Positions 31,952 through 52,802 of a DNA stretch of 58,096 bases are shown piece after piece. Position 1 is the first letter of the stretch. The number at the start of each line of letters is the position of its first letter. Where the stretch lies: the NCBI GenBank assembly GCA_030617105.1, contig JAUWWC010000002.1, positions 1-58,096 of the forward strand. The letters are read 5' to 3'. The stretch is from Candidatus Nealsonbacteria bacterium (GTDB taxonomy: Bacteria > Patescibacteriota > Minisyncoccia > Minisyncoccales > GWA2-38-27). Both the position numbers and the translations under genes were made by a program. The notes under the pieces are model-generated. The model was not told the DNA's origin. It made no database searches and saw only the letters and a program-made list of their open reading frames with translations.

Positions 31952-31958
31952 ATGTATG

Positions 31959-32031
31959 TGGGTCCGGAGCGACTCGAACGCTCAACCTTATCCTTAAGAG
32001 GGATCTGCTCCACCAATTGAGCTACGGACCC
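31959..32031 (-). tRNA. tRNA-Lys (anticodon CTT), no encoded CCA
   Basis: Acceptor GGGTCCG/CGGACCC, anticodon loop CTCTTAA, T-loop TTCGAGT. Confidence 0.85.
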
Positions 32032-32068: not shown

Positions 32069-32563
32069 TTACGGACAAGGAATTTCAAACAAACCCTGGC
32101 TCCACCAATTTTGATAAATATCAGTTGTCCAATCAGCTAAGCCAATAGCCCAAAGGAGTGTTCCAATAATGAGAAAAGCGCCATAAATTATCAAGAGACC
32201 AATAACAACTGCTGTGAATAATCTCTTTGCCCGAGAAAGCATTTCTGGCTGTCCCTGGCTAATAATATACATACCTCCGCCAATTGCTATCATTAACACT
32301 GCTAAGGGCGGAACAACCATAAACAAAAGACGGTCAATCCATTTATCAAGCATTACAAAAAAATCACAAAGTTGGCAAGGATCTGACTCATCAATCTCAT
32401 CCGTGGTTGGATCATCACAAGACCGGCCACAAGGAACAAGGCCTCCAACTCTCTTTTCAATTGGAATATTTTTACACCAATCTGCATCTTTCGCCTGGAC
32501 TAAATTAATAGTTAAAGAAAAAAACAACAAGCTCAAAAAGATTATTGAAAATATCTTCCTCAT
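32069..32563 (-). CDS. Secreted Cys-containing protein with a TrbC/VirB2-like (T4SS pilin-like) two-helix hairpin
   Basis: Signal peptide, then LAVLMIAIGGGMYIISQGQPEMLSRAKRLFTAVVIGLLIIYGAFLIIG. This is the same hairpin motif as in the ORFs at 43697-47903. Confidence 0.65.
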   Translation of the reverse strand: MRKIFSIIFLSLLFFSLTINLVQAKDADWCKNIPIEKRVGGLVPCGRSCDDPTTDEIDESDPCQLCDFFVMLDKWIDRLLFMVVPPLAVLMIAIGGGMYIISQGQPEMLSRAKRLFTAVVIGLLIIYGAFLIIGTLLWAIGLADWTTDIYQNWWSQGLFEIPCP

Positions 32564-32671: not shown

Positions 32672-33610
32672 TTAACGGGCGAAGGGGTTGCGGCTGCCGC
32701 GCACGCCGAAATGCACGTGACACCCAGTTGACCTGCCAGCTCCTGAAGTTCCTGGCTTACCTCCCATTAAAGCAATCATCTGACCTTGAGAAACTGCTTG
32801 GCCTGGAGCAACCAAGCTCTTTTGAATATGACCATACATTGTTACTACTCCATTAGGATGTAAAATTGTTAAATAATTTCCAGCTCCTCCATTCCAACCA
32901 TATTTTACCCTTTGCACTATGCCTGCTGCTGCAGCATATATTGGGTCTCCACATTTACCTCCAAAGTCAATAGCATTATACCAATGAAGCCCTTGAGTAA
33001 TTCTACAAACAGCATGAGGACAGATAAAATAACTTGAACCAATAGGAACCTGGGAAGCGGCATAATAGGTCTTTGGAGCAGGCATCTTGCCATTAGGAAT
33101 AATCAAAATATCACCTATGAAAATATCTCCTTCGCTTGAAAGTCCGTTAAAAGTAATGATTTCAGGACTTTTACCTTTATATGTCTCTGCAATCTCACTT
33201 AATGTATCTCCTTTTTTAATATGGTAAACAACTCCTGAAACTGGCAGAATAACAAGTTTCTGGCCAGGCCTAATTATTGATTTTGAGCTTAAGTCATTGG
33301 CCCATAAAATTGTTTCAAGAGAAACATCATATTTAGCTGTAATAGAAGAAAAGGTATCTCCTGATTCTACAATATATTCAATAATTCCATTTCTTGCTTC
33401 TGCCTCATCTTCAATGGTTCCCAACATGCTCCCTAAAACCTGTGGAGTAATTGTTACTGGCGGAGAAAGCCCAACCATACTGTTCTTTTGGATAAAAGTC
33501 ATTTCAGGAGATTCTCTAAGAAAGTTTTTACTTGGGTTAGCAAATAAATCTTGAGAAATTAAACTAGCTGATATCTGACTGGGTAGTTTTAAACTTGAGA
33601 ATAAGCCCAA
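32672..33610 (-). CDS. LysM (x2) + M23 peptidoglycan DD-metalloendopeptidase (start codon uncertain)
   Basis: LysM repeats YIVESGDTFSSIT..W.N and YHIKKGDTLSEIA, and M23 motifs H.YNAIDF and GCHVHFGV. The frame stays open upstream to 33760 and encodes a TM helix, but it has no ATG/GTG/TTG there. Confidence 0.8.
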   Translation of the reverse strand: MGLFSSLKLPSQISASLISQDLFANPSKNFLRESPEMTFIQKNSMVGLSPPVTITPQVLGSMLGTIEDEAEARNGIIEYIVESGDTFSSITAKYDVSLETILWANDLSSKSIIRPGQKLVILPVSGVVYHIKKGDTLSEIAETYKGKSPEIITFNGLSSEGDIFIGDILIIPNGKMPAPKTYYAASQVPIGSSYFICPHAVCRITQGLHWYNAIDFGGKCGDPIYAAAAGIVQRVKYGWNGGAGNYLTILHPNGVVTMYGHIQKSLVAPGQAVSQGQMIALMGGKPGTSGAGRSTGCHVHFGVRGSRNPFAR

Positions 33611-34739: not shown

Positions 34740-36968
34740 ATGCTGGGGAAAACTAAAAACTTTCTATTTAATCTATGTAAAAAGAAAACAATTCTCTTTG
34801 TTTTCTTTTTTAGTTTTTTTGGACTTACATTTGCCAGATCAGCTTCAGCAGGGTGGGTGGAGAACTTAGCTACATGGATTGCTACTCGTCCTTTTCTTTT
34901 AATTATTTGGCTTTTGGTAAAATTCGCGATTTGGAACGTAGGTTTAGTTGGTTCTTTTTTAAATTGGGTCTTAAGTCCCAATTTTATTAGTCTAAGTTAC
35001 ACTAACCCAGCAAACAATCCAATAATAGATACTGGATTAGGGGTTACCCAAGGATTCGTAAATATGCTCCTGGTTTTAATTCTGGTCTATATTGCTATTG
35101 CCACTATTTTGCGGTTAGCTGGTTATGAAACAAAAAAACTCTTAGTAACATTTATCATTGTTGCTCTTTTAGTAAACTTTGCTCCTGTTATTTGTGGAAT
35201 AATTGTTGACGCTTCAAATATTGTAATGAACTTTTTTATCCAAGATTTAAAAGCAGATGCTTTTGGTAAGGTTATGGGTGCAAAAGTTGAGCAAATCCTT
35301 GCTGGTTTTGATTGGAAGACAACGATTGAAGAAACCCAACAACGTATCCTCCAGCTTGTTATTATGGTTGGGTTCCTTTTTGTCCTAAGCTTCATTTTAT
35401 TTCTCTTTACTATTCTCTTCATTTTAAGATATCTTGTTATTTGGTTGTTAGTTATTCTCTCTCCTTTGGCCTTTGCTTGTTATATTTTACCTATGACTAG
35501 AAAATATTTTGATAAATGGTGGGAGCAGTTTATTAGCTGGTCATTTATTGGAGTAACCTGCGGTTTCTTTCTTTATTTGGGACTTTTACTAGTAACGTAT
35601 GTCCCTACCTCAATTACAGCTCCAGAAACAGGAGAAACGCCCCTCTTTAATAACATTCTTCCCTATTTTGTCTCAGCAATCTTTCTCGGCATTGGATTTG
35701 TCTTTGGGCTCCAAACATCAGCCATAGGCGCTAAGACAGTAGTAAACTTTGCCAAAGGAACCCAAAGAGCAGCTGGAAGAGGGGCAAAATGGGTAGGAGG
35801 AAGAATAGCTCAAAAAGGAATAAGGCCAATTGTTGAAAGACCTGCAAGATTGGCAGTAGACAAAGTGTCTAGAGCCGTATCAAGAGTAGGAGCTTGGGGA
35901 TATAAAGGAGTAAAACCGCTTGCTCCTTTAAAATGGCTGCTACCTGAAAAAGTCAGAGAATTCGGCAACATAAGACCTGTTATAGAAAAATCAATAGAAA
36001 AAGCTAAAAAGGAATCAGGAACAGCATCAGCTGCGAAAATTCTAACAAGAACGGCCTCAGGAGCTGAGGGTGCAGGATTATTAATTAAAAACTTAATAAC
36101 AAACGATGCTCAAGACCTATTTACTGATGCTAGGAAAATCCGCAGGTGGAAAGATATGTCTGATCAAGAAATATTAGAAGATAAGGAATTTATTAAAATT
36201 ATAGCTCCGTTATTAAAACACGCTGAGCAAGCAGGTATGACTGGTCGTACATTAAGAAGAGATCCTCGTTTAGCTAAAATAGCGGCAGTTGCTGGAATTA
36301 GGGGTTATAAGGGCTTATCCCCACAAAAAGCAGTGACTAAAGCTGTTGGAGAGGCAAGAGAACATATTAAAGATTGGGAGCCAGAAAGCTTAAAAGACCC
36401 AGAGGTATTAATGGCCTGTTTAGCTCAATTTGACAGAGATAGATGGTTGCAAGTTAACCGTCAAGTCAAAGAGGGCCAAAATACTGCCCATAAAACTATG
36501 GATAAAGTTCTTGCTGAATTCAAACGAAAAAACAATCTAACGCGTAAAAGCGATGAAGAGGTTTGGAATAATGAATTTAAAAAGTTTATAAATGAAAACT
36601 ACGGAGGCACTAAATATTTTGAGGCAGTGACTGAAGACAGAATGCAAAGAACAGGATGGAGAACAGCTCAAACGCCTACACCAGGAACAACAGCAATGGG
36701 TAGTCCACCGCCTCCAAAAGAAAGAACTAAACCTATAACTACGACCGAAGCTATAAAAGAAAAAATTAAAGAAAGGAAAGAGCCAAAAGAAAAAACCAAA
36801 CCTATGACTATAACTGAAGCCAGAAAAGAACGAAAGAAAAAGGTTCAAATGCCTACTATGATAACAAGAAAAATGAGAGCAGGATTAAAAAAAGCAGGTT
36901 ATAGCGATGAAGATATACGCAAAATGACTCCGATAGAAGCCTGGGAAAAACTTGGTCGAACTTTTTAA
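34740..36968 (+). CDS. Large polytopic membrane protein, possibly VirB6/TrbL-like, with a basic soluble C-terminal region
   Basis: About 8 hydrophobic helices in the first ~330 aa, then a K/R-rich region with internal repeats (RTKPITTTEA / KTKPMTITEA). The functional assignment is inferred from context only. Confidence 0.4.
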   Translation: MLGKTKNFLFNLCKKKTILFVFFFSFFGLTFARSASAGWVENLATWIATRPFLLIIWLLVKFAIWNVGLVGSFLNWVLSPNFISLSYTNPANNPIIDTGLGVTQGFVNMLLVLILVYIAIATILRLAGYETKKLLVTFIIVALLVNFAPVICGIIVDASNIVMNFFIQDLKADAFGKVMGAKVEQILAGFDWKTTIEETQQRILQLVIMVGFLFVLSFILFLFTILFILRYLVIWLLVILSPLAFACYILPMTRKYFDKWWEQFISWSFIGVTCGFFLYLGLLLVTYVPTSITAPETGETPLFNNILPYFVSAIFLGIGFVFGLQTSAIGAKTVVNFAKGTQRAAGRGAKWVGGRIAQKGIRPIVERPARLAVDKVSRAVSRVGAWGYKGVKPLAPLKWLLPEKVREFGNIRPVIEKSIEKAKKESGTASAAKILTRTASGAEGAGLLIKNLITNDAQDLFTDARKIRRWKDMSDQEILEDKEFIKIIAPLLKHAEQAGMTGRTLRRDPRLAKIAAVAGIRGYKGLSPQKAVTKAVGEAREHIKDWEPESLKDPEVLMACLAQFDRDRWLQVNRQVKEGQNTAHKTMDKVLAEFKRKNNLTRKSDEEVWNNEFKKFINENYGGTKYFEAVTEDRMQRTGWRTAQTPTPGTTAMGSPPPPKERTKPITTTEAIKEKIKERKEPKEKTKPMTITEARKERKKKVQMPTMITRKMRAGLKKAGYSDEDIRKMTPIEAWEKLGRTF

Positions 36969-41782: not shown

Positions 41783-41917
41783 ATGTCTATCACATATCAA
41801 CCAAAAAGAAAAAAAAGGAAAAGAACGCATGGTTTTAGGGCGCGTCAGAAAACCAAAACAGGAAGAAGAGTATTAAAGAGACGAAGGAAAAAAGGGAGAA
41901 AAAAACTTAGTGTGTAA
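41783..41917 (+). CDS. rpmH: 50S ribosomal protein L34
   Basis: [44 protein letters not shown]. Too short for the ORF track. Confidence 0.95.
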
Positions 41918-42460: not shown

Positions 42461-43171
42461 ATGGGTATTTTAATTACAGCATTTAACACAATATTATATC
42501 AGCCGCTATTGAATGTTTTGGTTTTATTATACGAGTATTTGCCTGGTCATGATTTCGGCGTGGCTGTAATTGTTTTGACAATTTTAATCAAGATATTATT
42601 TTATCCTTTAGGCGTTAAAGCAATTAAGTCGCAGAAAGCTCTTTCCGGGCTTCAGCCAAAGATAAAAGAGATTCAGGAAAAATACAAAGAGAATAAAGAG
42701 CAGCAAACAAAGGAAATAATGGCGCTTTACAAAAGGGAAAAGATAAATCCTTTTTCTGGCTGTTTGCCTCTTCTAATCCAGCTTCCTGTCTTAATTGCTC
42801 TTTATAGAGTATTTTGGCATGGTTTGCAACCAGAACAAATGACTTTACTATATAGCTTTGTTCCTTCCCCTGGAGTCATTGATGCAACTTTCTTCGGCAT
42901 TATAAACCTTGCCAACCCCAATATAGTAATAGCGTTTTTAGCAGGAATTTTCCAATTTATTCAAGTGAAGATGGTTTCTCCTAAATCTAAAAAGGACAAA
43001 AAGCAAGATTCTAGTTTTGCGGGCCAGATGCAGAAACAGATGCAATACTTTATGCCTGCTTTTATGGTTTTGATTCTTTTCCGTTTGCCTTCAGCTATTG
43101 GTCTTTACTGGATAACCACTACCCTCTTTACAATTGTTCAACAGTATGTTATTCTTAAAAAAGAAAAATGA
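42461..43171 (+). CDS. yidC: Membrane protein insertase YidC (short, Gram-positive/Oxa1-like form)
   Basis: KSQKA...LQPK.KEIQEKYK....Q..E.M.LYK...INP..GCLP.LIQ.P. Position in the rpmH-rnpA-yidD-yidC-jag cluster. Confidence 0.9.
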   Translation: MGILITAFNTILYQPLLNVLVLLYEYLPGHDFGVAVIVLTILIKILFYPLGVKAIKSQKALSGLQPKIKEIQEKYKENKEQQTKEIMALYKREKINPFSGCLPLLIQLPVLIALYRVFWHGLQPEQMTLLYSFVPSPGVIDATFFGIINLANPNIVIAFLAGIFQFIQVKMVSPKSKKDKKQDSSFAGQMQKQMQYFMPAFMVLILFRLPSAIGLYWITTTLFTIVQQYVILKKEK

Positions 43172-43629
43172 TTAACCAAGATAATCTAAATGAAATAAGG
43201 AAAACAGTTGATGAGTTTTTTGAGAAAACAAGTTTTGAAGTTGAAGCTGAGGTTTTGCCTTTTCAAGAAAAAACAATCCCGGTAAGGATAAAAACTGAAG
43301 AGCCAAGGATTTTAATTGGTCAAAATGGTCAAACATTAGCCGAGATTCAGCACCTCTTAAAAGCAATATTAAGACGTAAAATCCCGGAGCAGTTCTATCT
43401 TGACATTGATGTTAATGATTACAAAAAGAAGAAAACAGAGTATTTAAAAGAAACAGCTGTTTCTTTGGCTGATGAGGTTGCTCTGACCAAAAAAGAAAAA
43501 ACTTTAACAGCAATGCCAGCTTATGAAAGAAGGATTATTCATTTAGAATTAGCTGGAAGAGAGGATATTGCAACTGAAAGCATAGGCGAAGAGCCCGAAA
43601 GAAGGGTTGTTATCCGTCCTTATCCTTAA
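43168..43629 (+). CDS. jag: Jag/KhpB-like RNA-binding protein (KH + R3H domains)
   Basis: IGQNGQTL.A.Q.L (KH) and ERRIIH..L (R3H). Follows yidC with a 4-nt overlap. Confidence 0.8.
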   Translation: MINQDNLNEIRKTVDEFFEKTSFEVEAEVLPFQEKTIPVRIKTEEPRILIGQNGQTLAEIQHLLKAILRRKIPEQFYLDIDVNDYKKKKTEYLKETAVSLADEVALTKKEKTLTAMPAYERRIIHLELAGREDIATESIGEEPERRVVIRPYP

Positions 43630-43696: not shown

Positions 43697-44929
43697 TTAA
43701 TAAGGCTTTGCACCAATGATTATAAGTCTTGTGGCTGCGGCTACAGCGCATTTTGTATAGATCCAATAACCGCTGCCATATGAAGGAGTAATGTATTTTT
43801 TGCAATCTTCCTCATTTGTTATATTTTTATTATCAAGTAAATTATTATCAACTCCGCTGAAAAAAGTATCACTTCTTCCATCACTAGTAAGAAGAATAGC
43901 TAAAAGATCGCCTTCAATTTTAATTGATTCTGGCGACCAAAGCAGTGGCTTATCTTCGCACCACCACTTATTATCTCCGCATGGCGGTTTGTTGAGCCAA
44001 TAAGGCTCAGAATCTAAAGCCACCCCCTTATTTAAATTAGGTTTTTGATATAAAGTTACTTTCCAATTAGGGTCTAACTCATAAAGTAGTTGAAAGGGCT
44101 TGATTGAGGAAAGACCAAAGCCTATTCCCACCAATACCTCTCTTTCATATGGTCTCCATCCGCCACCAGGATCTTTAAGATGAGAAACTACAGGATAGGA
44201 CTTACCTTCAAAATTTCTATCTTCATAAACAATTACCCCATATTCGGTTTCATATTCCCAATCTCCATCAGTCCATATATGTGGAATGAAATAGATAAAC
44301 TTAACCTTGTTGTCAAAATCTCCTCTAATATCTTCTGCGCTTGAAACTGTATAACATTGATCTGTAATTTCTTCAAATATTGTATCCAACTCTTTTTTTA
44401 TTCTTCTTTGTTCGTCTATTCTTTTTTGCTCATCTTTTATTGAATCTGTTTTTTTGAAGTCTTCAGTAAGGTCCCAAGCTTTCATTACAAGCATTTCTTC
44501 TTTACAAAGAAGAACTCCAGCAGGTAATTCAGAAATAATTGGCTTTAATCGTGGGAGGTGGAAGACGATTAGGTCTGGGTTGATGGTTATTAGAATTAGA
44601 TAAGAGCCAAAAAGGATTAAAAGGCCTAAGAGAGCAGCGCCAATCCTGCTTTTAGCATCATTTATTCTTTCAGGGCTTCCAGCTGATGTAAAATATTGAA
44701 ACCCAGCATAAATTAAAACAACAAGGGCAATCAGTCCGCTTATCCAGATTAAGAAATTAAAAATATATTTAAAATATTCAGTAACTGGAGTAGTGGCTTG
44801 TTCTGGTTTAAATCCTTCAATTTCCGGGTATTCAACTTCTAAGTCTCTACCTGTTCGTTGCGCAAAAGCAAAACCAACTAAGCCAAAAAGCATAATAAAG
44901 ATAATAACAATGCTAAAGAATTTTTTCAT
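43697..44929 (-). CDS. T4SS-pilin-like hairpin fused to a C-terminal beta-rich domain (possible beta/gamma-crystallin-like repeats)
   Basis: Signal peptide, then hairpin IALVVLIYAGFQYFTSAGSPERINDAKSRIGAALLGLLILFGSYLILITINPDL. C-terminal segments such as YGVIVYEDRNFEGKSYPV resemble Greek-key motifs (tentative). Confidence 0.6.
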   Translation of the reverse strand: MKKFFSIVIIFIMLFGLVGFAFAQRTGRDLEVEYPEIEGFKPEQATTPVTEYFKYIFNFLIWISGLIALVVLIYAGFQYFTSAGSPERINDAKSRIGAALLGLLILFGSYLILITINPDLIVFHLPRLKPIISELPAGVLLCKEEMLVMKAWDLTEDFKKTDSIKDEQKRIDEQRRIKKELDTIFEEITDQCYTVSSAEDIRGDFDNKVKFIYFIPHIWTDGDWEYETEYGVIVYEDRNFEGKSYPVVSHLKDPGGGWRPYEREVLVGIGFGLSSIKPFQLLYELDPNWKVTLYQKPNLNKGVALDSEPYWLNKPPCGDNKWWCEDKPLLWSPESIKIEGDLLAILLTSDGRSDTFFSGVDNNLLDNKNITNEEDCKKYITPSYGSGYWIYTKCAVAAATRLIIIGAKPY

Positions 44930-46005
44930 ATAGTAATTGTTTTATGTTCAATTATTTCTTCTATAATATTAAGTATTTCATCAGACTTATTAATGATTTG
45001 GGGATTTAGACCCTGGATTAGTAGAAGCTTGCCTTGAATTTCCCCAACAGGGCAAGGGTTGCCCCCATCGCAATTTACTGGCTCACATCCTTCTTTTATA
45101 TCATGGCACCCTCCTTTACAATGAGCATTACATCTATTGTTTACTCCAAAAACATCATCATATAAGCATTTATCTGGAAGCGTGCCTATTTCTGACATAA
45201 AGGGCTCTATCTCCTTGATTTTATCAACTAATTCTTTAAGCTTTGCTGCCAAATCTTTCTTTAGGTTCTTTTCTATGGTTATTTTTTCTTTTTGTTCTTT
45301 TAGATATTCTATAATTTTTTCATCGTCTTCTATTATTATGTTTTTTTGATAATAAACTATTTTTTCATCTAAAACCTTTTTTATCTCATCCTGTAAATCT
45401 TGTTCTTCAGCAATAGCTCTATTTCTATAATAAAGGATTTCGTCTTTCCAGGCAATAACTCTTTTCTGGTTTTCCTTAATTTCTGATTGATTTGGGCAGG
45501 GCTGGAATCCAGGCCCAGCATAACATTGACGGGGCTGGCAGGAATTACTTTCCTCGCCTCCATCGCAAAAGCATAAGGGCTGGGTATTGCTGCAGTCGCA
45601 GTTGTCAGTTAGGTCTTTTATTTTCTGGCTTGAAAGTTCAATTCCAGGAATTATATATTTTTTAAGTTGTTCAGCGATTTCTTCAACTTTGCCTAAGAGT
45701 TTTGGAGTTTTAGTTTCAAGAGGAGGTATGTCTAAAGGAGAAAAAATGATTTTTTCCAGCCCAGGCATTTCAAAACTAACTAATTCAGGATTAATAGTTC
45801 TTAGAATTAAATAAGAAGAAAGAAGAATAACAATTCCCAAAAAAGCAGCTAATATTTGCTTTCTGGCTTTGCTTAATTTTTCCGGATCTCCAGCTGAAGT
45901 TAAATAAAGAACCCCTCCTATAATTAAACCCACTAAAGCAATTACTCCAGCAATAGAGATGATGTATGTATAAAGATTTTGAAAAGCGTCAGTAAGAGAA
46001 GGCAT
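44926..46005 (-). CDS. T4SS-pilin-like hairpin fused to two Cys-rich modules flanking a coiled coil
   Basis: Hairpin IALVGLIIGGVLYLTSAGDPEKLSKARKQILAAFLGIVILLSSYLILRTINPEL. Cys-rich modules CDCSNTQPLCFCDGGEESNSCQPRQCYAGPGFQPCP and CLYDD..NNRCNAHCKGGCHDIKEGCEPVNCDGGNPCP. Confidence 0.65.
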   Translation of the reverse strand: MPSLTDAFQNLYTYIISIAGVIALVGLIIGGVLYLTSAGDPEKLSKARKQILAAFLGIVILLSSYLILRTINPELVSFEMPGLEKIIFSPLDIPPLETKTPKLLGKVEEIAEQLKKYIIPGIELSSQKIKDLTDNCDCSNTQPLCFCDGGEESNSCQPRQCYAGPGFQPCPNQSEIKENQKRVIAWKDEILYYRNRAIAEEQDLQDEIKKVLDEKIVYYQKNIIIEDDEKIIEYLKEQKEKITIEKNLKKDLAAKLKELVDKIKEIEPFMSEIGTLPDKCLYDDVFGVNNRCNAHCKGGCHDIKEGCEPVNCDGGNPCPVGEIQGKLLLIQGLNPQIINKSDEILNIIEEIIEHKTITI

Positions 46006-46010
46006 ATTTA

Positions 46011-47903
46011 TTATTTAATTTCGCAGACATAGAAATTAAGTTCATGAATACATTGGGCAATTTCTGGGTCGTTTAACATTATACTTAGTCCGTCCAAGCA
46101 TTCTTGGACGCATTCTCTGTGTTTTTCCTGGCCTTTTTCTAAATAGCATTCTCCAAAGCAGTCGCCATAAATCGTGTCTTCTGTTTTACAGCAGATTCGC
46201 AAGATTGCATTGTTTGGAGGGATAATTGCTCCTTTTGCTTGTAAACAGTTAAATATTTCATCATAATGTCTCATTGTGTATCTAACACTCTTTGCCAAAT
46301 CTTTAATTATCTCAGGACCTATTTCATCAATTATAGGTATTATGCCAATGTTTGTTGGAGTATCATTGCTGCCTTTTCCTTCTATTACATCTCTTATTTC
46401 TTGCCAAATTCTTTGGATTTCTTTAAGTTGGTCTTTGATTTTCCCTTTTGGACAGACCCCGTCTAATTCAGGTTTAACAAAACATCCTATTTCTACACAC
46501 CAGCAACCAGCCTTAGAGCAAAAGCATTCGCACACTGGATAACATCTCCTGGAACTGCACTGGCTGACTAAAACCTGTAATTTATCAACAGCATCAATTA
46601 ATTCTTTATCTTTTTCAACAAGCAGTTCTAATTTATCTATTAAGAGCTGGGTTGTTCTTTTTGTTCTGTCAATGATTTCTCCTACTGGAGCTTCGTTTGA
46701 ACAAGCCATTGATTCAGAAAATACTTCTTCTGCTTCTTCTACTGACTCTTCTCCAGTAAGTTTGTCTTCATCAGGCGCAGCTGAAAAAACTTCTTCCTGT
46801 TCCATTGTTCCGCTTACAGAGCAGTAAAAAGTTGCAAAATCAGGCAAAAATTCTTTAGTTGGTTGAAAATACCAGTTGCCATATTGATTTTTTGTATATT
46901 CGCCTGTGTAATAATAAAGATTTACATCGTCCCAGAATTTAGTTTCTCTTATCGTCCAGTCCTGATTATCATAAGAATCTTTTTTGTTATAAAACTGAAC
47001 TAAACTTTTTAAAGACCTTAAAGGACATTCTTTTATAAATTTTTCTGCTCTTTTAAGCCGGTCTAATTCTTCTTTTAAAAGACGAACCTCTTGTTCTATC
47101 TCTGTGTTTTTTATATTAAGATTGTTAATTTCTGTCTGATTTTCCGCTTCTCTGTCTTGGATTCCTTTTCTAACCGGGGCACAAGGATCAGAAGTGCAAT
47201 ATCTAGGCGGGCAGTCATTACATCCGCCATGCCAACAGCAAGGGTCAGGATGAGTACCTCCGTTTTTAGAACAGGTGGATCTGGGATAAAAACATCTACA
47301 ATTATCTGAATAGTTCTTTAGAGCTTCGCTTTGTTGTTTAAGTTTATCAGCAATTCCTGTTTCATCTTCAGCAGCTATTGCCGTAACATAATTCCTAATT
47401 CTTTCCATTCTTGGCGTTTTTTTCTCTTCGGGTTTTGGATAATCAGAAATATATGCTTCAAAAATCTTTTCAATTATTCTTGCAAAAGGCATTTCAACAT
47501 CAATTGAGCTGTTAATAGCAGTAATTTCAGGCAGGGGCACTTCTGGTTTTACAGTGATTTGAACTTGTTGAAGGGTCGGGATTTTTAGATTAATAAACTG
47601 GGGACTAAGGGTTTTTAAAATGAGATAAGAAGATAATAAAATCAAGAGGCCGAAAAAAGCGCCAGAGATTTGGTTTTTAGCCAAAGTCATTCGGTCTGGT
47701 TTGCCAGTTGAGATTAGATAGAGAATTCCGCCGTAAATTAATCCTGCTAAAGCAAGAATTCCTCCTGCCCAGATGGATAAATTAATAAGATATTTAGCAT
47801 AAAGGGAAAGAATATCTTCTACAGGAGCAGTTGTGACAAAATCCTGAGGCGGAATAGCTCCAGGAACTCTGGGATAAATTATTTCTAAAATAAAAAAAAG
47901 CAT
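46011..47903 (-). CDS. T4SS-pilin-like hairpin fused to a large multi-module Cys-rich extracellular region
   Basis: Hairpin LALAGLIYGGILYLISTGKPDRMTLAKNQISGAFFGLLILLSSYLILKTLSPQF. Cys-rich modules CRCFYPRSTCSKNGGTHPDPCCWHGGCNDCPPRYCTSDPCAP, CSSRRCYPVCECFCSKAGCWCVEIGCF, and CCKTEDTIYGDCFGECY..HRECVQEC. Confidence 0.65.
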   Translation of the reverse strand: MLFFILEIIYPRVPGAIPPQDFVTTAPVEDILSLYAKYLINLSIWAGGILALAGLIYGGILYLISTGKPDRMTLAKNQISGAFFGLLILLSSYLILKTLSPQFINLKIPTLQQVQITVKPEVPLPEITAINSSIDVEMPFARIIEKIFEAYISDYPKPEEKKTPRMERIRNYVTAIAAEDETGIADKLKQQSEALKNYSDNCRCFYPRSTCSKNGGTHPDPCCWHGGCNDCPPRYCTSDPCAPVRKGIQDREAENQTEINNLNIKNTEIEQEVRLLKEELDRLKRAEKFIKECPLRSLKSLVQFYNKKDSYDNQDWTIRETKFWDDVNLYYYTGEYTKNQYGNWYFQPTKEFLPDFATFYCSVSGTMEQEEVFSAAPDEDKLTGEESVEEAEEVFSESMACSNEAPVGEIIDRTKRTTQLLIDKLELLVEKDKELIDAVDKLQVLVSQCSSRRCYPVCECFCSKAGCWCVEIGCFVKPELDGVCPKGKIKDQLKEIQRIWQEIRDVIEGKGSNDTPTNIGIIPIIDEIGPEIIKDLAKSVRYTMRHYDEIFNCLQAKGAIIPPNNAILRICCKTEDTIYGDCFGECYLEKGQEKHRECVQECLDGLSIMLNDPEIAQCIHELNFYVCEIK

Positions 47904-47904
47904 A

Positions 47905-48249
47905 TTATACTAACATCCTTATAACCCAGGTAGGGATAAAATCAATCCCTATCGTTAGGAGACCTATAATACGTTCAGCAAAAAAAGGAATAACGCATGA
48001 TTTTAGAGAAACGTGAGCAAGTTTGACTAATAGAATAATAAAAACTATTTCGAAGGGGATTTCCCATATTTGGTCTACAATTGGCACTGGAATTAGATCA
48101 AGAAGTTCCATAAAACCAGCGAAAGAGATCAAAACTAATCCCGTTGGCGACAAAAGAACATCAGTAGGGATTTTCTGAAACCAACCGCCTTTCTTTTTCG
48201 GAACAGGAACTTTTTGTGGAGTTTCTTCTTTTGGTGCTTCTTCCGGCAT
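47905..48249 (-). CDS. Small membrane protein of the T4SS-like operon
   Basis: 114 aa with 3 hydrophobic helices. 1-nt gap to the next gene. Confidence 0.5.
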   Translation of the reverse strand: MPEEAPKEETPQKVPVPKKKGGWFQKIPTDVLLSPTGLVLISFAGFMELLDLIPVPIVDQIWEIPFEIVFIILLVKLAHVSLKSCVIPFFAERIIGLLTIGIDFIPTWVIRMLV

Positions 48250-48253
48250 TTTA

Positions 48254-49195
48254 TTAAGGTTGCTCTGGGAAAGAGAAAAAGTTAAAATCTTTTACTCCAA
48301 AAATATCCTCAAACAGTTTAAACTGCTGAGGAGGTTTGATTTCCAGAGGCATGTTAAATTCAGACAGATAAATTTCAACTTTTATAGCCGTTGTCTCGTC
48401 AGATTCTTGAACATAAACTTCGCTTTCCATGTTCACTTTATAAATCAACTTATCTTCTTTGCCTATCCAAACTTCAGCCCTTATCTCTTCAAATCCTTCA
48501 AGGCATTCAGCGTCAATAGGTAAAAGTTTGGATATTTCTGGGACTAACTTCTTTAATTCTTCTTTTTCTATATCAAAAAGATAGTGATAAGTTTCTTTTT
48601 CATTGATTTTTTCATCTGGCAGTATTTTTTTAAAACGGAAAAAGCTTTCATTTGCGAGCATTTTTTTTATCACTTCTAATTCTGATTCAGCAGAAAGCCT
48701 GCCAAATAGATCTTTAAAACTCTCTTTTTCAAGCTTAATCCAGTGGTTTTTTATTTCCTCCAGATCAAAAGCAAAAAAGTCCAAAAATTGAGAAGACGGC
48801 AAGGAGGTTAGTTTAAACCAAGAGTTTTCGCCAATGATTATTTTTTCCCATTCAAATAAAAACTCACCTCTATCAAAATCAGCGCTATTCTTTGTTTTTC
48901 CTCTCCATTTCAGCACCTCCTTATTAGTAATATCTAAATCCCCGTTTACACTCATAGAGCTCTTAGTAATGTTTTGTCCTGTTCGTATTATTTCTTTTCC
49001 AAAAAAAATATCAAAATGAAGAGTTTTGAGTTCGGCAAAAAGGAGCGAGGACTCTTTTAAAACTTCTTTAGGAGAAGGACGAAAAGGGCTCCAAAAAGGA
49101 TCCCAAATTAGAATGCTGACAACAGCTGCTGTCCCAATCGCTATTACAATGGCTATTCCAGTAGCAATTTTTATAACAAGTCCTGGCTTTTTCAT
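48254..49195 (-). CDS. N-terminally membrane-anchored protein of the T4SS-like operon, unknown function
   Basis: A single TM helix (IATGIAIVIAIGTAAVVSILIW), then a ~280-aa soluble domain. Confidence 0.5.
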   Translation of the reverse strand: MKKPGLVIKIATGIAIVIAIGTAAVVSILIWDPFWSPFRPSPKEVLKESSLLFAELKTLHFDIFFGKEIIRTGQNITKSSMSVNGDLDITNKEVLKWRGKTKNSADFDRGEFLFEWEKIIIGENSWFKLTSLPSSQFLDFFAFDLEEIKNHWIKLEKESFKDLFGRLSAESELEVIKKMLANESFFRFKKILPDEKINEKETYHYLFDIEKEELKKLVPEISKLLPIDAECLEGFEEIRAEVWIGKEDKLIYKVNMESEVYVQESDETTAIKVEIYLSEFNMPLEIKPPQQFKLFEDIFGVKDFNFFSFPEQP

Positions 49196-49202
49196 TTTAT
49201 TT

Positions 49203-51020
49203 TCACAATTGTTTTTTAGCCTCTTTTATTTTTTGGAGTTGTTCTGGGGATGTTGTAATAATTTGGTCTTCAGTGTATGAAGCAAGGACTTTGATTAGGA
49301 CATGTTTTGTTCCAGCAAAGAATATGCCTTCGCCTACTGGTGATTCTAACAAAAGCATTTTCTCTTCTTCAGTAAGATTAAATGTTTTCTTGACTACATC
49401 AATAGTAGCTGGGCTTTGTTTCATTAAAAGAGCTAAAGAAGAGTTAGTGAGAATTGGTTTGCCATAATCTGATTTCATAAAATCATTAACATCCTGGGTA
49501 ACAGTAGTTACCCCAAGCCAGTATTTCCTTGCTCTTTTCACTGTTCCAAACAAGAAAGAAGCTCCATCTTCAGTTTTCATTAGCCACCAGGCCTCATCAA
49601 TTATTAGGAGACGCTTTTTCATTTCAGAGGTTATTGTTTTCCAGATATATCTTAAAATCATGAAAAGAGCCATAGGCCTTAATTCGTCTTCCATGTCACG
49701 AATGCCAAATACAACCAATCTGTTTTTCATATCTACATTAGAGGGCTGGTTAAAGAATTTAGCGTAAACCCCTTTGGTGAATCTTCTGATTCTTCTAACT
49801 AATGATTCTGCTCCTTCCATTGTTGAAAGAACTGATTCAAGGTCGCTCATTAAAGGAAAAGGAAGTTCCTTGCCCCATTTTTTTGCATCGCTCTCTGGGG
49901 TAATGTCTTTTGCTGCATAGGTTTCAGTTAAAGCTCTGTCCATAATTGCATCTTCTTCCGGGGTTAATCCTCCTTTTTTAGGGCCTAAGCCTCCAAGCAT
50001 CACTCTCATTAAACCAACTAAGTTAATAATATTACTTCTTAAAACATCTTCTGCTTTTTCATCTTCTCTAGGCGGAGGTAGATCAAAAGGATTAATATGA
50101 TGGTCAGAAGCTAAGGAAATATTAAAAAAAGAACCTGCAACAGCATTTGCTAAGAATTTGTACTCATTTTCCGGGTCTATTATTATTCCGTTCACGCCCA
50201 ACATTAAGTATCTTAAAATTTCAAGCTTAATTGCATAAGATTTCCCGGCGCCGGAAGTAGCGAATATTACCTCGTTGGCATTAGCCAAACTAAAGCGGTC
50301 AAATAAGACCAAGGAATTATTGTGTTTATTAATGCCGTAAAGGATTCCTTCATTTGAGCTTAAATCAAAAGAAATAAATGGGAATGTGCTTGATAAAGGA
50401 GCAGTGTTCATTAAAGTAGTAACCATTAACTGGTCTAAATTATATGGAGAAGTGCAGATAAATCCTTCTTTTTGCTGGTAAAGAGCAGGCTTTATATATA
50501 TTAAGCGCGATTCCAGAACTGACCTTAAATTTGTCTCAATATCTCTTAATCCTTTTTCATTATTAGCATAAACAGTAAGGTATAAGCTGAAGCGGAACAT
50601 TCTTTCCTGGGCTGTTTGGAGTTTATCTCTTAGATCTTCCAAATCCTGATAAGCAGTTTCCAGAGCAGGGTCACGGATTAATCCTTTTTCTTCTCTTTCA
50701 GCAATTTCTGCTTGAACCTCAGTAACTTTCTTCCTTAGTTTTTTTAAGATGCTTTCACTAGAAATAGGATGCAAGTAAAAAGAAATATCCATTGGAACAT
50801 TCAAGTTTATTATCGGAGAAAGCCAGCCAGTGCTTAGATATCTTGGATAAGAGAAAATAAAGTAGCTTTTAGCAAACCGCTCTCCTAATTTTAGATAATT
50901 CTGTTTAACTTCAAGGGAAGAAGGAGCAACAATATCAGCAATACCCATAGGTTCTTGGGCAAAAAGTTCTTCTGGAATTTCCTGCTTCTTTTTGAATTTT
51001 TTAAGAAATGGTATTTTCAT
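49203..51020 (-). CDS. VirB4/TrbE/TraE-type T4SS ATPase, middle + ATPase domains
   Basis: Walker A ATSGAGKSYAIK and Walker B LLIIDEAWWL. The region upstream of the P-loop (YFIFSYPRYLSTGWLSPII..PMDISFYLHP) is typical of VirB4-like proteins. Confidence 0.8.
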   Translation of the reverse strand: MKIPFLKKFKKKQEIPEELFAQEPMGIADIVAPSSLEVKQNYLKLGERFAKSYFIFSYPRYLSTGWLSPIINLNVPMDISFYLHPISSESILKKLRKKVTEVQAEIAEREEKGLIRDPALETAYQDLEDLRDKLQTAQERMFRFSLYLTVYANNEKGLRDIETNLRSVLESRLIYIKPALYQQKEGFICTSPYNLDQLMVTTLMNTAPLSSTFPFISFDLSSNEGILYGINKHNNSLVLFDRFSLANANEVIFATSGAGKSYAIKLEILRYLMLGVNGIIIDPENEYKFLANAVAGSFFNISLASDHHINPFDLPPPREDEKAEDVLRSNIINLVGLMRVMLGGLGPKKGGLTPEEDAIMDRALTETYAAKDITPESDAKKWGKELPFPLMSDLESVLSTMEGAESLVRRIRRFTKGVYAKFFNQPSNVDMKNRLVVFGIRDMEDELRPMALFMILRYIWKTITSEMKKRLLIIDEAWWLMKTEDGASFLFGTVKRARKYWLGVTTVTQDVNDFMKSDYGKPILTNSSLALLMKQSPATIDVVKKTFNLTEEEKMLLLESPVGEGIFFAGTKHVLIKVLASYTEDQIITTSPEQLQKIKEAKKQL

Positions 51021-51021
51021 A

Positions 51022-51651
51022 TTACTCTACCAATTCACTTGGTATTTCTGGGTAATAGCCTTGTTCTGCTTGTTCTGGGTGATGCAATCCCCAGAAAAGT
51101 TCAGTAATCTCTAAATTGGTCAAAGGGACAGATTGAAGCCCGGATCCTCTTAACCCTAAAACCACAAACTCTACTCTCTGCATAAGTTGGATTTTGCATC
51201 TTTGGAACATTTCTTCAGTTAAGCTCGGGATTTTAGGAAACTTCCTTTTTTCTCTGGTTACTGAAGCTTCCATAATGGAAAAAGGAACTATTACATAAAA
51301 AGTTTTTTGCATAATTGACCCCCCTTTTGTTATTTGCTCAATAAATTTCCTGTAATCAGTAATCTGGATTTTAAGCAGTTCATTTTCTTCTTTTTTCTCA
51401 ATCTCTGTTAGTTTTTCTAAATAGCCAGTAATATTAAGACGTCTTGATTGAACAAGGATTTGGCAGGAGAAATCCAGGGAATTTAAGAAATTCTGGAATT
51501 GGTATAAAATGGCATTTTGCTCTTCAGTGGATTTTAAAGCAAAATTTAAAGAAGAGACCATTAGCACTGCTCTTAGGCCTTTGTTTTTTAAAATAATAAT
51601 CCCATCTCTTATTTGGTCAAATTCTAAAAAATCTTGAGTAGAAAGCTTCAT
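51022..51651 (-). CDS. VirB4-like N-terminal domain encoded as a separate ORF
   Basis: STQDFLEFDQIRDGIIILKNKGLRAVLMVSSLNFALKSTEEQNAILYQFQNFLNSLDFSCQILVQS matches the N-terminal pattern I recall from Gram-positive VirB4 homologs (e.g. Tn916 Orf16, PrgJ). Its stop lies 1 nt before the ATG of the ATPase ORF. Confidence 0.55.
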   Translation of the reverse strand: MKLSTQDFLEFDQIRDGIIILKNKGLRAVLMVSSLNFALKSTEEQNAILYQFQNFLNSLDFSCQILVQSRRLNITGYLEKLTEIEKKEENELLKIQITDYRKFIEQITKGGSIMQKTFYVIVPFSIMEASVTREKRKFPKIPSLTEEMFQRCKIQLMQRVEFVVLGLRGSGLQSVPLTNLEITELFWGLHHPEQAEQGYYPEIPSELVE

Positions 51652-51652
51652 A

Positions 51653-52054
51653 TCACTTTGTTTCTAATTTTGTGAATAATTCATCTAATTTACTGCCTTT
51701 GGTGACTTTTAGTTCTGATTCTTTCTCAATTTCTTCTTTTTCTTCTTTTACTTTTCTGAGAAATTTTGGAGGACTGGTTTTCTTTTTCCAGAGATAAATC
51801 TTTGGTTTAAAAAGAAAACTAAAGAAGTTTTTTATAAAAATGGGTAGAGAGGTTTTTCCAATCTTTAGAAAAGCCAAACCAAAAGCTCCTCCTAATAAAA
51901 CTATTGCTGCGATTATGAAGAGATAAAGGGGGACAGTGAAAAAAAGAAAAAGGCAAATCCCACCGGCAATGCCTATAAAGATAAACTGTTTAAAGGTAAA
52001 GGGACCAACTATTTTTGCCTCTTTCTCAATAAATTGTGGAACAGTAAATTTCAT
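51653..52054 (-). CDS. PrgI/VirB3-like small membrane protein
   Basis: MKFTVPQFIEKEAKIVGPFTFKQFIFIGIAGG, then two TM helices and a basic tail. This is the typical PrgI-family layout, and it precedes the VirB4 genes. Confidence 0.6.
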   Translation of the reverse strand: MKFTVPQFIEKEAKIVGPFTFKQFIFIGIAGGICLFLFFTVPLYLFIIAAIVLLGGAFGLAFLKIGKTSLPIFIKNFFSFLFKPKIYLWKKKTSPPKFLRKVKEEKEEIEKESELKVTKGSKLDELFTKLETK

Positions 52055-52056
52055 AT

Positions 52057-52452
52057 TTATTCTATTATTTCTCTATATCTATCTTTCTTTTTAACTTGTT
52101 CTTGTTTAGCTTTTTTAGCTTTGAGCTGGGTTTGGTAAAGCGCTTCTAAGCTTTTTTTGAGCGGCAGAAAGACAAATCTTGTTATTTCAGAACTTATTTG
52201 CTTAGCTTTTTTCTTTTCTATTTTTAATTCTTTTTCTAAAATATCTGAAAATTCATTTGGCGGTAAAAGTCCTAAAAAGACATAGCCAATGTTTTTAGTA
52301 ATATCAAAAATTACATCATCGTCAGTGATGCCATTATCTTTACAAACCTCCTGGATATTAGCAGCAACTTCTTCAGAAAAAGTAGCTTTCTGAAGGTTTT
52401 TAGGAAGTTCTTTATATAATTCCCAGAGCTGTTCTTTTGGATAATCCGGCAT
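52057..52452 (-). CDS. Hypothetical soluble protein, first gene of the T4SS-like operon
   Basis: I start at the internal ATG at 52452 (MPDYPKEQLWELYK...). The track's upstream 69 codons overlap a convincing plus-strand lipoprotein gene and contain the promoter. Confidence 0.5.
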   Translation of the reverse strand: MPDYPKEQLWELYKELPKNLQKATFSEEVAANIQEVCKDNGITDDDVIFDITKNIGYVFLGLLPPNEFSDILEKELKIEKKKAKQISSEITRFVFLPLKKSLEALYQTQLKAKKAKQEQVKKKDRYREIIE

Positions 52453-52576
52453 TAGTTTATTGTAGCATAAACAAAAAAAGCAACCCAGTGGAAAAAGAGG
52501 TTGACTAAATGAATTATATTTTCTAAAATTAATTATTGAACTTTGAGAACTAAATAATTTCAGAAAGGTTGAGAAA

Positions 52577-52762: not shown

Positions 52763-52772
52763 CAATAAAAAA

Positions 52773-52802
52773 AGAGCGTTAGGAAGACGCTCTTATTTTT
52801 TT
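52773..52802. terminator. Bidirectional intrinsic terminator
   Basis: AAAAAA-AGAGCGT-taggaag-ACGCTCT-TATTTTTTT. It abuts the PBP1A stop. Confidence 0.8.

What the first reader, a model, noticed from the sequence alone, without database searches (positions are those of the whole stretch)
43697..52452. Compact nine-gene T4SS-like operon lacking obvious coupling protein, relaxase or mobile-element genes
Nine genes lie on the minus strand with gaps of -4 to +8 nt:
- a 131-aa soluble protein
- a PrgI/VirB3-like protein
- a VirB4 N-domain ORF
- the VirB4 ATPase
- a membrane-anchored 313-aa protein
- a 114-aa membrane protein
- three large proteins that each begin with a TrbC/VirB2-like hairpin

No relaxase, VirD4-like coupling ATPase, integrase or replication gene is present in the window, and the operon sits next to core genes (jag, PBP1A).

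This argues for a chromosomal, host-function machine (DNA uptake, effector or adhesin display, cell-cell contact with a host) rather than a conjugative element. As far as I know, the mechanism of such CPR systems has not been established experimentally.
Basis: partly seen in the sequence, partly recalled or inferred. Interest (0 to 1): 0.7.

Follow-up and report, generated by a model that had tools for sequence, protein, structure and literature searches.

The report
Chromosomal type IV secretion system of Nealsonbacteria
This is a real nine-gene type IV secretion operon beside the chromosome's replication origin in an ultrasmall Patescibacteria (Nealsonbacteria-like) bacterium; the same system was described in papers from 2023 and 2025, so it is a new example of a known but mechanistically unsolved machine.

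Summary
Nine tightly packed minus-strand genes (43697-52452) encode:
- a conserved 131-aa helical protein
- PrgI/VirB3
- a separate VirB4 N-domain protein (TrsD-like)
- a VirB4 ATPase with intact Walker A and B motifs
- a 313-aa anchored protein
- a small 3-TM protein
- three large proteins that start with a VirB2-type pilin hairpin

No relaxase, coupling protein or integrase is found in any of the 49 other ORFs. The window is an entire contig, so the rest of the genome is unseen.

- The operon lies about 2 kb from dnaA/dnaN/rpmH/rnpA, the replication origin region.
- A VirB6-like protein sits at 34740-36968.
- A fourth, small pilin-like gene sits at 32069-32563.

Across 80 related species the core p131-prgI-trsD-virB4 is syntenic with the origin genes, and VirB4 is as conserved as DnaA. 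This is vertical inheritance, not an ICE.

The system class is already published: Wang 2023 (Cell) showed it is essential in a Saccharibacterium, and Quinonero-Coronel 2025 described relaxase-less, dnaA-proximal clusters with pilin arrays.

- The pilin-like proteins are 300-1000 aa, cysteine-rich ectodomain fusions belonging to two families.
- Two unannotated small components are conserved.
- The 313-aa gene is lineage-specific.

The mechanism remains inferred.

The parts
52057..52452 (-). First gene of the operon: a 131-aa cytoplasmic all-helical protein with a disordered basic tail and a conserved C-terminal D-x-Y-R-E motif. Function unknown; it is a conserved core component.
   Evidence: No Pfam or NCBIfam hit. 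168 homologs of 131-151 aa. 4585 representatives of 50%-identity clusters at E<=1e-3. Found upstream of prgI in 57/80 loci. AF2 pLDDT 84; no Foldseek match in the PDB.
51653..52054 (-). PrgI/VirB3-like membrane protein (133 aa). In canonical T4SSs, VirB3 anchors VirB4 to the membrane.
   Evidence: PF12666 6e-7, 30.3 bits against a cutoff of 27. One hydrophobic stretch, 35-53. Present in 73/80 loci.
51022..51651 (-). TrsD-like protein: the N-terminal domain of VirB4 encoded as a separate 209-aa polypeptide.
   Evidence: Aligns to positions 2-151 of the CD1110 VirB4 model (1e-7) and to TrsD (1e-4). It is a separate ORF in 75/75 loci that have both genes, so the split is ancestral and not a frameshift.
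49203..51020 (-). VirB4 ATPase (605 aa), the motor of the system.
   Evidence: NCBIfam conju_CD1110 2e-104, above cutoff. PDB 4AG5 7e-40. Walker A and B present; the DEAW motif is found in 78/78 relatives. More than 8000 homologs, the best at 90% identity. It is the most conserved gene of the neighbourhood.
48254..49195 (-). N-terminally anchored 313-aa protein. This is a lineage-specific insertion, not a core component.
   Evidence: No family or PDB hit. A homolog was found in only 1 of 80 related loci (L005). In the closest relatives virB4 is followed directly by the small TM gene.
47905..48249 (-). Small 3-TM membrane protein (114 aa) with SPxG and E-x-IP...P-x-W motifs. It is a conserved partner gene immediately downstream of virB4.
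   Evidence: 15 loci by BLAST, plus a 35-member divergent cluster at the same position. hhalign between the two groups gives probability 88%, E 3e-6. No Pfam hit.
46011..47903 (-). 630-aa protein: a VirB2-type hairpin (about 30-109) followed by a large ectodomain; 30 Cys in the protein (ectodomain family A).
   Evidence: PF18895 7e-6. Hairpin HMM 6e-30. Paralog of the 359-aa protein across the hairpin and both Cys knots. Family A comprises 57 proteins in 40 loci.
44926..46005 (-). 359-aa protein: a VirB2-type hairpin, a flexible linker, then a long antiparallel four-helix bundle with two small Cys-rich knots (family A).
   Evidence: PF18895 6e-11. AF2 pLDDT 87 on a 53-sequence alignment. Invariant cysteines. 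No PDB structural match at E<0.03.
43697..44929 (-). 410-aa protein: signal peptide, VirB2-type hairpin and a different C-terminal ectodomain (family B).
   Evidence: PF18895 1.5e-6 and TrbC 3e-5. It shares only the N-terminal region with the 630-aa protein. Family B comprises 33 proteins in 31 loci.
34740..36968 (+). Extended VirB6/TrbL-like polytopic membrane protein (742 aa: about 6 TM segments, then a basic hydrophilic tail of about 400 aa).
   Evidence: PF04610 1.6e-4, below cutoff. 8 of 33 orthologs hit TrbL independently, best 1.4e-6. TM pattern. In many relatives it lies directly upstream of p131-prgI, the same position as VirB6 in a Clostridium conjugative module.
32069..32563 (-). 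Small (164-aa) VirB2-like protein with a signal peptide and hairpin. It is a candidate conventional pilin subunit.
   Evidence: PF18895 7.7e-4, weak. Hairpin HMM 2e-16. It is the only window pilin-like protein under 200 aa.
32672..33610 (-). LysM + M23 peptidoglycan endopeptidase. It is a possible VirB1-type wall-remodelling helper; the association is weak.
   Evidence: Pfam LysM 8e-24 and M23 4e-23. It is syntenic with ksgA-virB6L in 22 loci. The 2025 survey notes M23/LysM domains on VirB1-like proteins in this phylum (PMC12102498).
52453..52800 (-). Upstream non-coding region of the operon. It holds the PBP1A terminator hairpin (52772-52794) and a TGCTACAAT extended -10 element that ends 6 nt before the ATG.
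   Evidence: This is read from the sequence; promoter function was not tested.

Best explanation
This is the Nealsonbacteria (class Paceibacteria, Patescibacteria/CPR) version of the phylum's chromosomal, origin-proximal type IV secretion system. That system descends from the conjugation apparatus of single-membrane bacteria (MPF-FATA, CD1110-type).

Shown here:
- The motor module PrgI/VirB3 + TrsD + VirB4 is intact and catalytically competent by motif.
- It is fixed next to jag-yidC-rnpA-rpmH | dnaA-dnaN in 80 species.
- A VirB6-like membrane protein and VirB2-type hairpin proteins accompany it.
- No relaxase, coupling protein or integrase lies in cis.

Inferred:
- VirB3 and TrsD tether VirB4 hexamers to the membrane at a VirB6 platform.
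- VirB4 pulls the VirB2-type hairpins out of the membrane, which is its established role in pilus biogenesis in canonical systems.
- The hairpins assemble into a wall-spanning filament or stalk whose large disulfide-rich ectodomains face outward and contact a host cell.
- The structure supports the host-dependent lifestyle as an attachment device and/or a conduit for macromolecules. It does not transfer the bacterium's own DNA by conjugation.

The direction and nature of any cargo are unknown.
For: Synteny in 80 GTDB species: virB4 80/80, trsD 78, prgI 73, p131 57, jag 65, dnaA 57.

Conservation: VirB4 has a median identity of 71.5% against 70.2% for DnaA, and is higher than DnaA in 41/52 loci. 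The TrsD/VirB4 split is present in 75/75 loci.

No relaxase, T4CP or integrase was found:
- not in the window
- not among recurrent neighbours in relatives

No sign of a mobile element was found:
- no flanking tRNA or att repeats
- flat GC content
- no close relative on plasmids (all below 60% identity, best 34.5%, from Firmicutes/Actinobacteria)
- none in viral contigs

Gene order VirB6-PrgI-x-VirB4-small protein matches a Clostridium CD1110-type module that additionally carries VirD4.

The ectodomains are extracytoplasmic by topology (positive-inside loop) and by cysteine content: all 96 large ectodomains have at least 4 Cys.

Literature:
- The homologous cluster, including its pilins, is essential for epibiotic growth of Southlakia epibionticum (PMC10633639).
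- The phylum-wide survey reports the same architecture, the lack of relaxases and the dnaA proximity (PMC12102498).
Against: - No experiment exists for any Paceibacteria member.
- The window is a whole contig, so a T4CP or relaxase elsewhere in the genome cannot be excluded. The 2025 survey found VirD4-like homologues in most Patescibacteria genomes, far from virB4.
- The VirB6 assignment rests on sub-threshold hits.
- No VirB8-like protein was identified.
- Whether 300-1000-aa hairpin fusions can polymerise like 100-aa VirB2 pilins is untested. They may simply be membrane-anchored surface proteins.
- The conservation comparison is biased, because the loci were chosen by VirB4 similarity.
Confidence: 0.8

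Rival explanations
1. DNA or nucleotide import machine. The apparatus works in reverse, like the archaeal Ced system or the Helicobacter ComB system, and takes up host DNA or other macromolecules through the VirB2-type filament without a relaxase or coupling protein.
For: The component set (VirB4-like ATPase, VirB6-like protein, VirB2-like proteins, small TM proteins; no T4CP or relaxase) resembles what is described for Ced. This comparison is from my own knowledge and from the discussion in PMC12102498. These organisms lack nucleotide biosynthesis (PMC12102498). ComM and RuvB/RuvC genes recur near the locus in relatives.
Against: The match to the CedB model is only 42.7 bits against a cutoff of 700. 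In Southlakia, comEC deletion abolished transformation without affecting viability, so DNA uptake as such is not the essential role (PMC10633639, PMC12857230). There is no direct evidence for the direction of transport.
Confidence: 0.25
2. Effector-export system. The machine injects proteins into the host bacterium to manipulate or tap it, as effector-translocating T4SSs do.
For: Some T4SSs (Ptl, Brucella VirB) work without a T4CP (PMC12102498, PMC12857230). Wang 2023 suggests protein export as one alternative (PMC10633639). p131 has a disordered basic C-terminal tail with a conserved terminal motif, which loosely recalls C-terminal T4SS signals; this is inference only.
Against: No candidate effectors, chaperones or T4CP are present in the locus or its conserved neighbourhood. 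p131 is the first gene of the core operon in most species, which suits a machine part better than a cargo.
Confidence: 0.2
3. Still a conjugative or DNA-export system whose relaxase and coupling protein are encoded elsewhere in the genome.
For: t4cp genes are often distant from virB4, and VirD4-like homologues were reported in 2,918 Patescibacteria genomes (PMC12102498). The rest of this genome is not visible, because the window is the contig.
Against: Relaxases were found in only 103 of 3,035 Patescibacteria genomes, and the t4cp of Southlakia was not essential while the T4SS genes were (PMC12102498). The cluster is vertically inherited next to the origin in 80 species.
Confidence: 0.07
4. 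Decaying remnant of an integrated conjugative element.
For: It lacks half of a conjugation gene set, and VirB4 is split into two ORFs.
Against: The split is conserved in 75/75 loci, with both ORFs retained at near-constant lengths (medians 212 and 597 aa). The catalytic motifs are conserved. VirB4 is as conserved as DnaA. There is no integrase, att site or tRNA junction. GC content matches the flanks.
Confidence: 0.02

Closest known systems
Patescibacteria-clade T4SS (Southlakia epibionticum SEML1_0006-0019, Wang et al. 2023 Cell; phylum-wide survey by Quinonero-Coronel et al. 2025 Microb Genom)
   Same: The following match:
- separate TrsD plus a VirB4 of about 600 aa
- PrgI
- an extended VirB6-like protein
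- PF18895 pilin-like genes
- no relaxase in cis
- location near dnaA/dnaN/rnpA/ksgA, as reported for Paceibacteria

Nearest VirB4 homologs are labelled Nealsonbacteria or Parcubacteria.
   Different: - The Southlakia pilin genes are small (381-417 bp, supplement of PMC10633639). Here, and in related Nealsonbacteria, 109 of 114 hairpin proteins exceed 200 aa and belong to two cysteine-rich ectodomain families.
- Southlakia PrgI is 300 aa; here it is 133 aa and is preceded by a separate 131-aa helical protein.
- The NTF2-like (VirB8-like) protein annotated in Southlakia has no detected counterpart here.
- There are no genetic data for this lineage.
Gram-positive conjugative MPF-FATA modules of the CTn2/CD1110 type (for example Clostridium botulinum pCDC3875)
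   Same: VirB4 scores above the NCBIfam CD1110 cutoff. The order VirB6 - PrgI - x - VirB4 - small protein is shared. Both are single-membrane architectures without VirB7/9/10.
   Different: The conjugative module has an adjacent VirD4 (CD1115), an unsplit VirB4 of about 800 aa, an SLT transglycosylase and a MOBP relaxase on a plasmid, and it has no VirB2-like pilins. VirB4 identity is only 27-35%.
Archaeal Ced DNA-import system
   Same: It works like a T4SS without a relaxase or coupling protein, and is built from a VirB4-like ATPase, a VirB6-like protein and a VirB2-like pilus protein (own knowledge; also discussed in PMC12102498).
   Different: Not a member: CedB model 42.7 bits against a cutoff of 700. 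Different domain of life. The hairpin proteins here carry huge ectodomains.
VirB2 / TrbC conjugative pilins of Gram-negative T4SSs
   Same: A two-helix hydrophobic hairpin with a short positively charged loop. Pfam TrbC matches at 3e-5, and 0.019 for the weakest.
   Different: Classical VirB2 proteins are small (own knowledge) and have no extra domain. Here the hairpin is the N-terminal module of 359-630-aa proteins, and the TrbC scores are below the Pfam cutoff.

Membership tests
Type IV secretion system (VirB4-defined superfamily) | VirB4-family ATPase with Walker A and B motifs | tested here: met
   CD1110 2e-104, above cutoff; 4AG5 7e-40; ATSGAGKS, LLIIDE.
Type IV secretion system (VirB4-defined superfamily) | VirB3/PrgI-type membrane partner next to virB4 | tested here: met
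   PF12666, 30.3 bits against a cutoff of 27.
Type IV secretion system (VirB4-defined superfamily) | VirB6-type polytopic channel protein | tested here: inconclusive
   Window protein 34740-36968 hits TrbL at 22 bits, below the 25.9 cutoff. 8 of 33 orthologs hit TrbL, best 1.4e-6. It has about 6 TM segments and conserved synteny. No NCBIfam hit.
Type IV secretion system (VirB4-defined superfamily) | VirB8-like (NTF2-fold) bitopic protein | tested here: inconclusive
   No sequence-level hit for any window protein. The only bitopic candidate (313 aa) is lineage-specific, and its fold was not predicted.
Patescibacteria-clade T4SS (PMC12102498) | VirB4 groups with Patescibacteria VirB4s rather than with those of mobile elements | tested here: inconclusive
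   The nearest homologs (68-90% identity) all come from Nealsonbacteria, Paceibacterota or Parcubacteria records. The best plasmid hit is 34.5%. No formal phylogeny was built.
Patescibacteria-clade T4SS (PMC12102498) | Separate TrsD-like ORF adjacent to virB4 | tested here: met
   (separate in 75/75 loci).
Patescibacteria-clade T4SS (PMC12102498) | VirB2-like (PF18895/PF04956) genes near virB4 | tested here: met
Patescibacteria-clade T4SS (PMC12102498) | Chromosomal location near dnaA/dnaN/rnpA/ksgA, with no relaxase nearby | tested here: met
Conjugative T4SS / integrative conjugative element | Relaxase (MOB) gene | tested here: not met
   None among the window ORFs or among recurrent neighbours in 80 loci. 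The rest of the genome is not visible.
Conjugative T4SS / integrative conjugative element | Type IV coupling protein (VirD4/TcpA) | tested here: not met
   None in the window. Cannot be tested genome-wide, because the contig is the window.
Conjugative T4SS / integrative conjugative element | Integrase, flanking att repeats or a tRNA insertion site | tested here: not met
   No integrase. The nearest tRNA is 11 kb away. Only short low-complexity repeats were found.
Archaeal Ced DNA-import system | CedB-type ATPase (NCBIfam equivalog NF041017) | tested here: not met
   42.7 bits against a cutoff of 700, covering the P-loop region only.

The most novel reading that the evidence does not exclude
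In Nealsonbacteria the VirB2 hairpin may have become an assembly handle for two conserved families of large, disulfide-rich ectodomain proteins: a helical-bundle family A and a second family B, typically one to three genes per genome. On this reading the VirB4/VirB3/TrsD/VirB6 machine, together with two previously unannotated conserved small proteins (the p131 and 3-TM families), builds them into a heteromeric 'decorated' surface stalk. That would be a T4SS-dependent organelle of a kind not described for the small-pilin Saccharibacteria system or for any conjugative pilus.
Probability: 0.25. Interest if true: 0.6.

Novelty: new member of a known kind. Interest (0 to 1): 0.33.

Why it matters
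Patescibacteria make up a large share of uncultivated bacterial diversity and appear to live on other microbes. [quoted passage not shown]

This locus adds no new principle. It does give a clean, complete Paceibacteria example. It also points to three testable specifics: giant hairpin-anchored ectodomain proteins, two unrecognised conserved small components, and a variable accessory gene. These could guide structural and cryo-ET work outside Saccharibacteria.

Tried and rejected
- **Ectodomain fold.** Foldseek of the high-confidence model of the 359-aa protein against the PDB returned only generic helical-bundle matches (best E 0.03). No VirB5-like or adhesin fold could be assigned.
- **p131 fold.** Foldseek of the p131 model found nothing (best E 2.8).
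- **PDB sequence searches.** Searches with VirB6L, the 410-aa protein, the 313-aa protein and TrsD found nothing below E 0.06.
- **313-aa protein as the VirB8 analogue.** Dropped, because it occurs in only 1 of 80 related loci.
- **200-aa TTG-start version of the first gene.** Rejected, because homologs are 131-151 aa.
- **ICE signatures.** tRNA, att repeats and GC shift were all negative.
- **DnaA-box enrichment to pin down oriC.** Not significant: 22 matches against 14 +/- 4 expected.
- **Promoter and terminator scans.** Counts were no higher than in shuffled sequence.
- **Viral contig scan for VirB4 relatives.** Empty.
- **'Hypervariable antigenic array' reading of the pilin genes.** Weakened, because the ectodomains fall into just two conserved families with a recurrent gene order.


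Full report
**1. Observation**

The nine minus-strand ORFs exist exactly as described:
- 52057-52452 (131 aa)
- 51653-52054 (133 aa)
- 51022-51651 (209 aa)
- 49203-51020 (605 aa)
- 48254-49195 (313 aa)
- 47905-48249 (114 aa)
- 46011-47903 (630 aa)
- 44926-46005 (359 aa)
- 43697-44929 (410 aa)

The spacings are -4 to +7 nt.
- The 605-aa protein is a VirB4 ATPase. It scores 2e-104 (350 bits, cutoff 325) against NCBIfam conju_CD1110. The VirB4 C-domain structure 4AG5 matches at 7e-40. Walker A (ATSGAGKS) and Walker B (LLIIDE) are present.
- The 209-aa ORF aligns to the first 150 positions of the same VirB4 model and to TrsD.
- The 133-aa ORF is PrgI/VirB3 (PF12666, above cutoff).
- All three large proteins match T4SS_pilin (PF18895) at their N-termini.
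- The 131-aa start codon is right, because 168 homologs are 131-151 aa long.

**2. Context**

I scanned 49 other ORFs of the window against Pfam. There is no relaxase, coupling protein or integrase.

The operon sits in the canonical origin cluster: dnaN (38831-39961) and dnaA (40120-41469) on one side. On the other side are rpmH (41783-41917), rnpA, yidD, yidC and jag (43168-43629). PBP1A, tyrS, ruvC and yebC lie beyond the operon.

- a 742-aa polytopic VirB6/TrbL-like protein (34740-36968)
- a small 164-aa pilin-like protein (32069-32563)
- a LysM-M23 wall hydrolase (32672-33610)

The VirB6 assignment is sub-threshold for the window protein. It is backed by 8 of 33 orthologs that hit TrbL independently (best 1.4e-6), by about six TM segments followed by a long basic tail, and by synteny.

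The window is an entire contig, so nothing outside it can be examined.

**3. Comparative genomics**

VirB4 has more than 8000 homologs, with identities up to 90%. Those that carry names are labelled Nealsonbacteria, Parcubacteria or Patescibacteria.

I fetched 80 species-level loci from GTDB genomes and mapped the window's proteins onto them.
- Presence counts: virB4 80/80, trsD 78, prgI 73, p131 57, jag 65, yidC 64, rnpA 62, dnaA 57.
- The block p131-prgI-trsD-virB4 always lies convergent with jag-yidC-yidD-rnpA and next to dnaA-dnaN.
- Two arrangements occur. They differ by a swap of [PBP1A-tyrS-ruvC-yebC] and [virB6L-ksgA-M23] across the origin region. Either way the T4SS genes stay close to the origin.
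- TrsD and VirB4 are separate ORFs in 75/75 loci. The split is therefore ancestral and is not a frameshift.
- VirB4 is the most conserved gene of the neighbourhood. Its median identity is 71.5% against 70.2% for DnaA, and it exceeds DnaA in 41/52 loci. The caveat is that the loci were selected by VirB4 similarity.
- The 313-aa protein has a homolog in only one locus (L005). In the closest relatives virB4 is followed directly by the small TM gene, so the 313-aa gene is a lineage-specific insertion.
- The 114-aa 3-TM protein has recognisable homologs in 15 loci. A divergent 35-member cluster sits at the same position, and hhalign links the two groups (probability 88%, E 3e-6). It is therefore a fifth conserved core gene.
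- Recurrent non-window neighbours are Band-7, ComM, LTD and RuvB proteins, not mobile-element genes.

Four further tests for mobility were negative:
- No tRNA gene or att-like repeats flank the operon.
- GC content is flat.
- The best of 3456 plasmid matches is 34.5% identical and comes from Firmicutes/Actinobacteria.
- No viral contig carries a relative.

**4. The pilin-like proteins**

A hairpin HMM built from the window's four proteins finds 114 such ORFs in the window and 52 of the 80 related loci. Of these, 109 exceed 200 aa, and most are 300-1000 aa.

Their post-hairpin regions fall into two families:
- Family A holds 57 proteins, with a median ectodomain of 491 aa and 24 Cys. It includes the window's 630-aa and 359-aa proteins, which are paralogs.
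- Family B holds 33 proteins, with a median ectodomain of 287 aa. It includes the 410-aa protein.

All 96 large ectodomains have at least 4 cysteines. The hairpin loop is positively charged, so the C-terminal domains should be extracellular.

The AlphaFold2 model of the 359-aa protein used 53 sequences and reached pLDDT 87. It shows:
- the two-helix hairpin
- a disordered linker of about 30 residues
- a long antiparallel four-helix bundle capped by two small cysteine knots

It has no significant PDB match.

By contrast, the pilin genes of the experimentally studied Southlakia cluster are only 381-417 bp (supplement of PMC10633639).

The order 630-359-410 recurs in the closest relatives. That pattern argues for stoichiometric structural parts rather than a free-running antigenic array.

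**5. The first gene**

The 131-aa protein is cytoplasmic and all-helical. It has a variable low-complexity linker and a conserved C-terminal D-x-Y-R-E motif. It matches no PDB fold. Its family is large and unannotated: 4585 cluster representatives at E<=1e-3. Its role is unknown.

**6. What is already known**

- Wang et al. 2023 (PMC10633639) showed by Tn-seq that the homologous cluster of Southlakia epibionticum, pilins included, is essential for epibiotic growth. They noted the lack of a relaxase and coupling protein.
- Quinonero-Coronel et al. 2025 (PMC12102498) surveyed 3,035 genomes and reported:
  - a monophyletic Patescibacteria VirB4 clade nested in MPF-FATA
  - widespread TrsD, PrgI, VirB6 and VirB2-like arrays
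  - relaxases in only 103 genomes
  - T4CP homologues mostly far from virB4
  - location near dnaA/dnaN/rnpA/ksgA in Paceibacteria
- A December 2025 review (PMC12857230) repeats that the function is open. It speculates about a pilus conduit for uptake or signalling.

Its remark that the mechanism is not established still stands.

**7. Mechanism**

The shown and inferred steps, and the evidence against them, are set out under the best explanation. My confidence in the identity and the non-conjugative, host-interaction role is about 0.8. Within that frame, import (about 0.25), effector export (about 0.2) and mainly adhesive display cannot be separated with the present data. A conjugative role with distant partners is about 0.07. 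A decaying ICE is about 0.02.

**8. Verdict**

The novelty rating is 'new member of a known kind'.

Incremental, possibly unreported points:
- giant cysteine-rich hairpin fusions in two families
- two conserved unannotated small components
- the lineage-specific 313-aa insertion
- the origin-symmetric rearrangement

The main text of the 2025 survey does not discuss pilin size or ectodomains.

Interest: 0.33.

Noticed in passing
window 26376-26450 (+): This is a tRNA (Rfam 53 bits) that ARAGORN reports with the four-base anticodon 'attt'. The anticodon stem CCTTC/GAAGG encloses an 8-nt loop C-U-AUUU-A-G (alternatively a 6-bp stem with a 6-nt loop). The acceptor stem has G3:U70, the alanine identity pair. 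It looks like a quadruplet-decoding or frameshift-suppressor-type tRNA and lies next to tRNA-Arg(tcg).
   Followed up: partly
window 23513-24659 (-): A Peptidase_M20 gene is split into two overlapping ORFs: 23958-24659 carries the N-terminal part and 23513-23971 the C-terminal part. It may be a frameshift, a pseudogene or a genuinely split gene.
   Followed up: no
window 114-2676 (-): Type IV pilus genes lie at the start of the window: a PilB-like T2SSE ATPase (931-2676) and a prepilin-type N-methylation protein fused to a LamG/concanavalin domain (114-938). The contig therefore carries both T4P and T4SS machinery.
   Followed up: no
window 52453-52470 (-): The first operon gene has no Shine-Dalgarno sequence. 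It has a TGCTACAAT extended -10 element that ends 6 nt before its ATG, which suggests a leaderless transcript. This is read from the sequence only.
   Followed up: no
window 31958-32031 (-): tRNA-Lys(ctt) lies 37 nt downstream of the small pilin-like gene 32069-32563. No repeats or integrase are nearby, so it is probably coincidental.
   Followed up: no
window 43697-52452 relative to 41470-41782: If oriC lies in the dnaA-rpmH spacer, the T4SS operon is transcribed toward the origin (head-on with replication). The convergent virB4/jag orientation is conserved in all related loci. The origin position is not established: DnaA boxes are not enriched.
   Followed up: partly
window 10233-12117 (-) and 26877-28556 (-): Several sizeable proteins are poorly annotated. 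The 482-aa and 143-aa proteins have no Pfam hit. The 559-aa protein has only a C-terminal SH3_3 domain.
   Followed up: no
L030:2148-3698 and 11 other loci: ComM (Mg-chelatase-like competence helicase) genes recur within 10 kb of virB4 in 11 related loci but are absent from this window.
   Followed up: no
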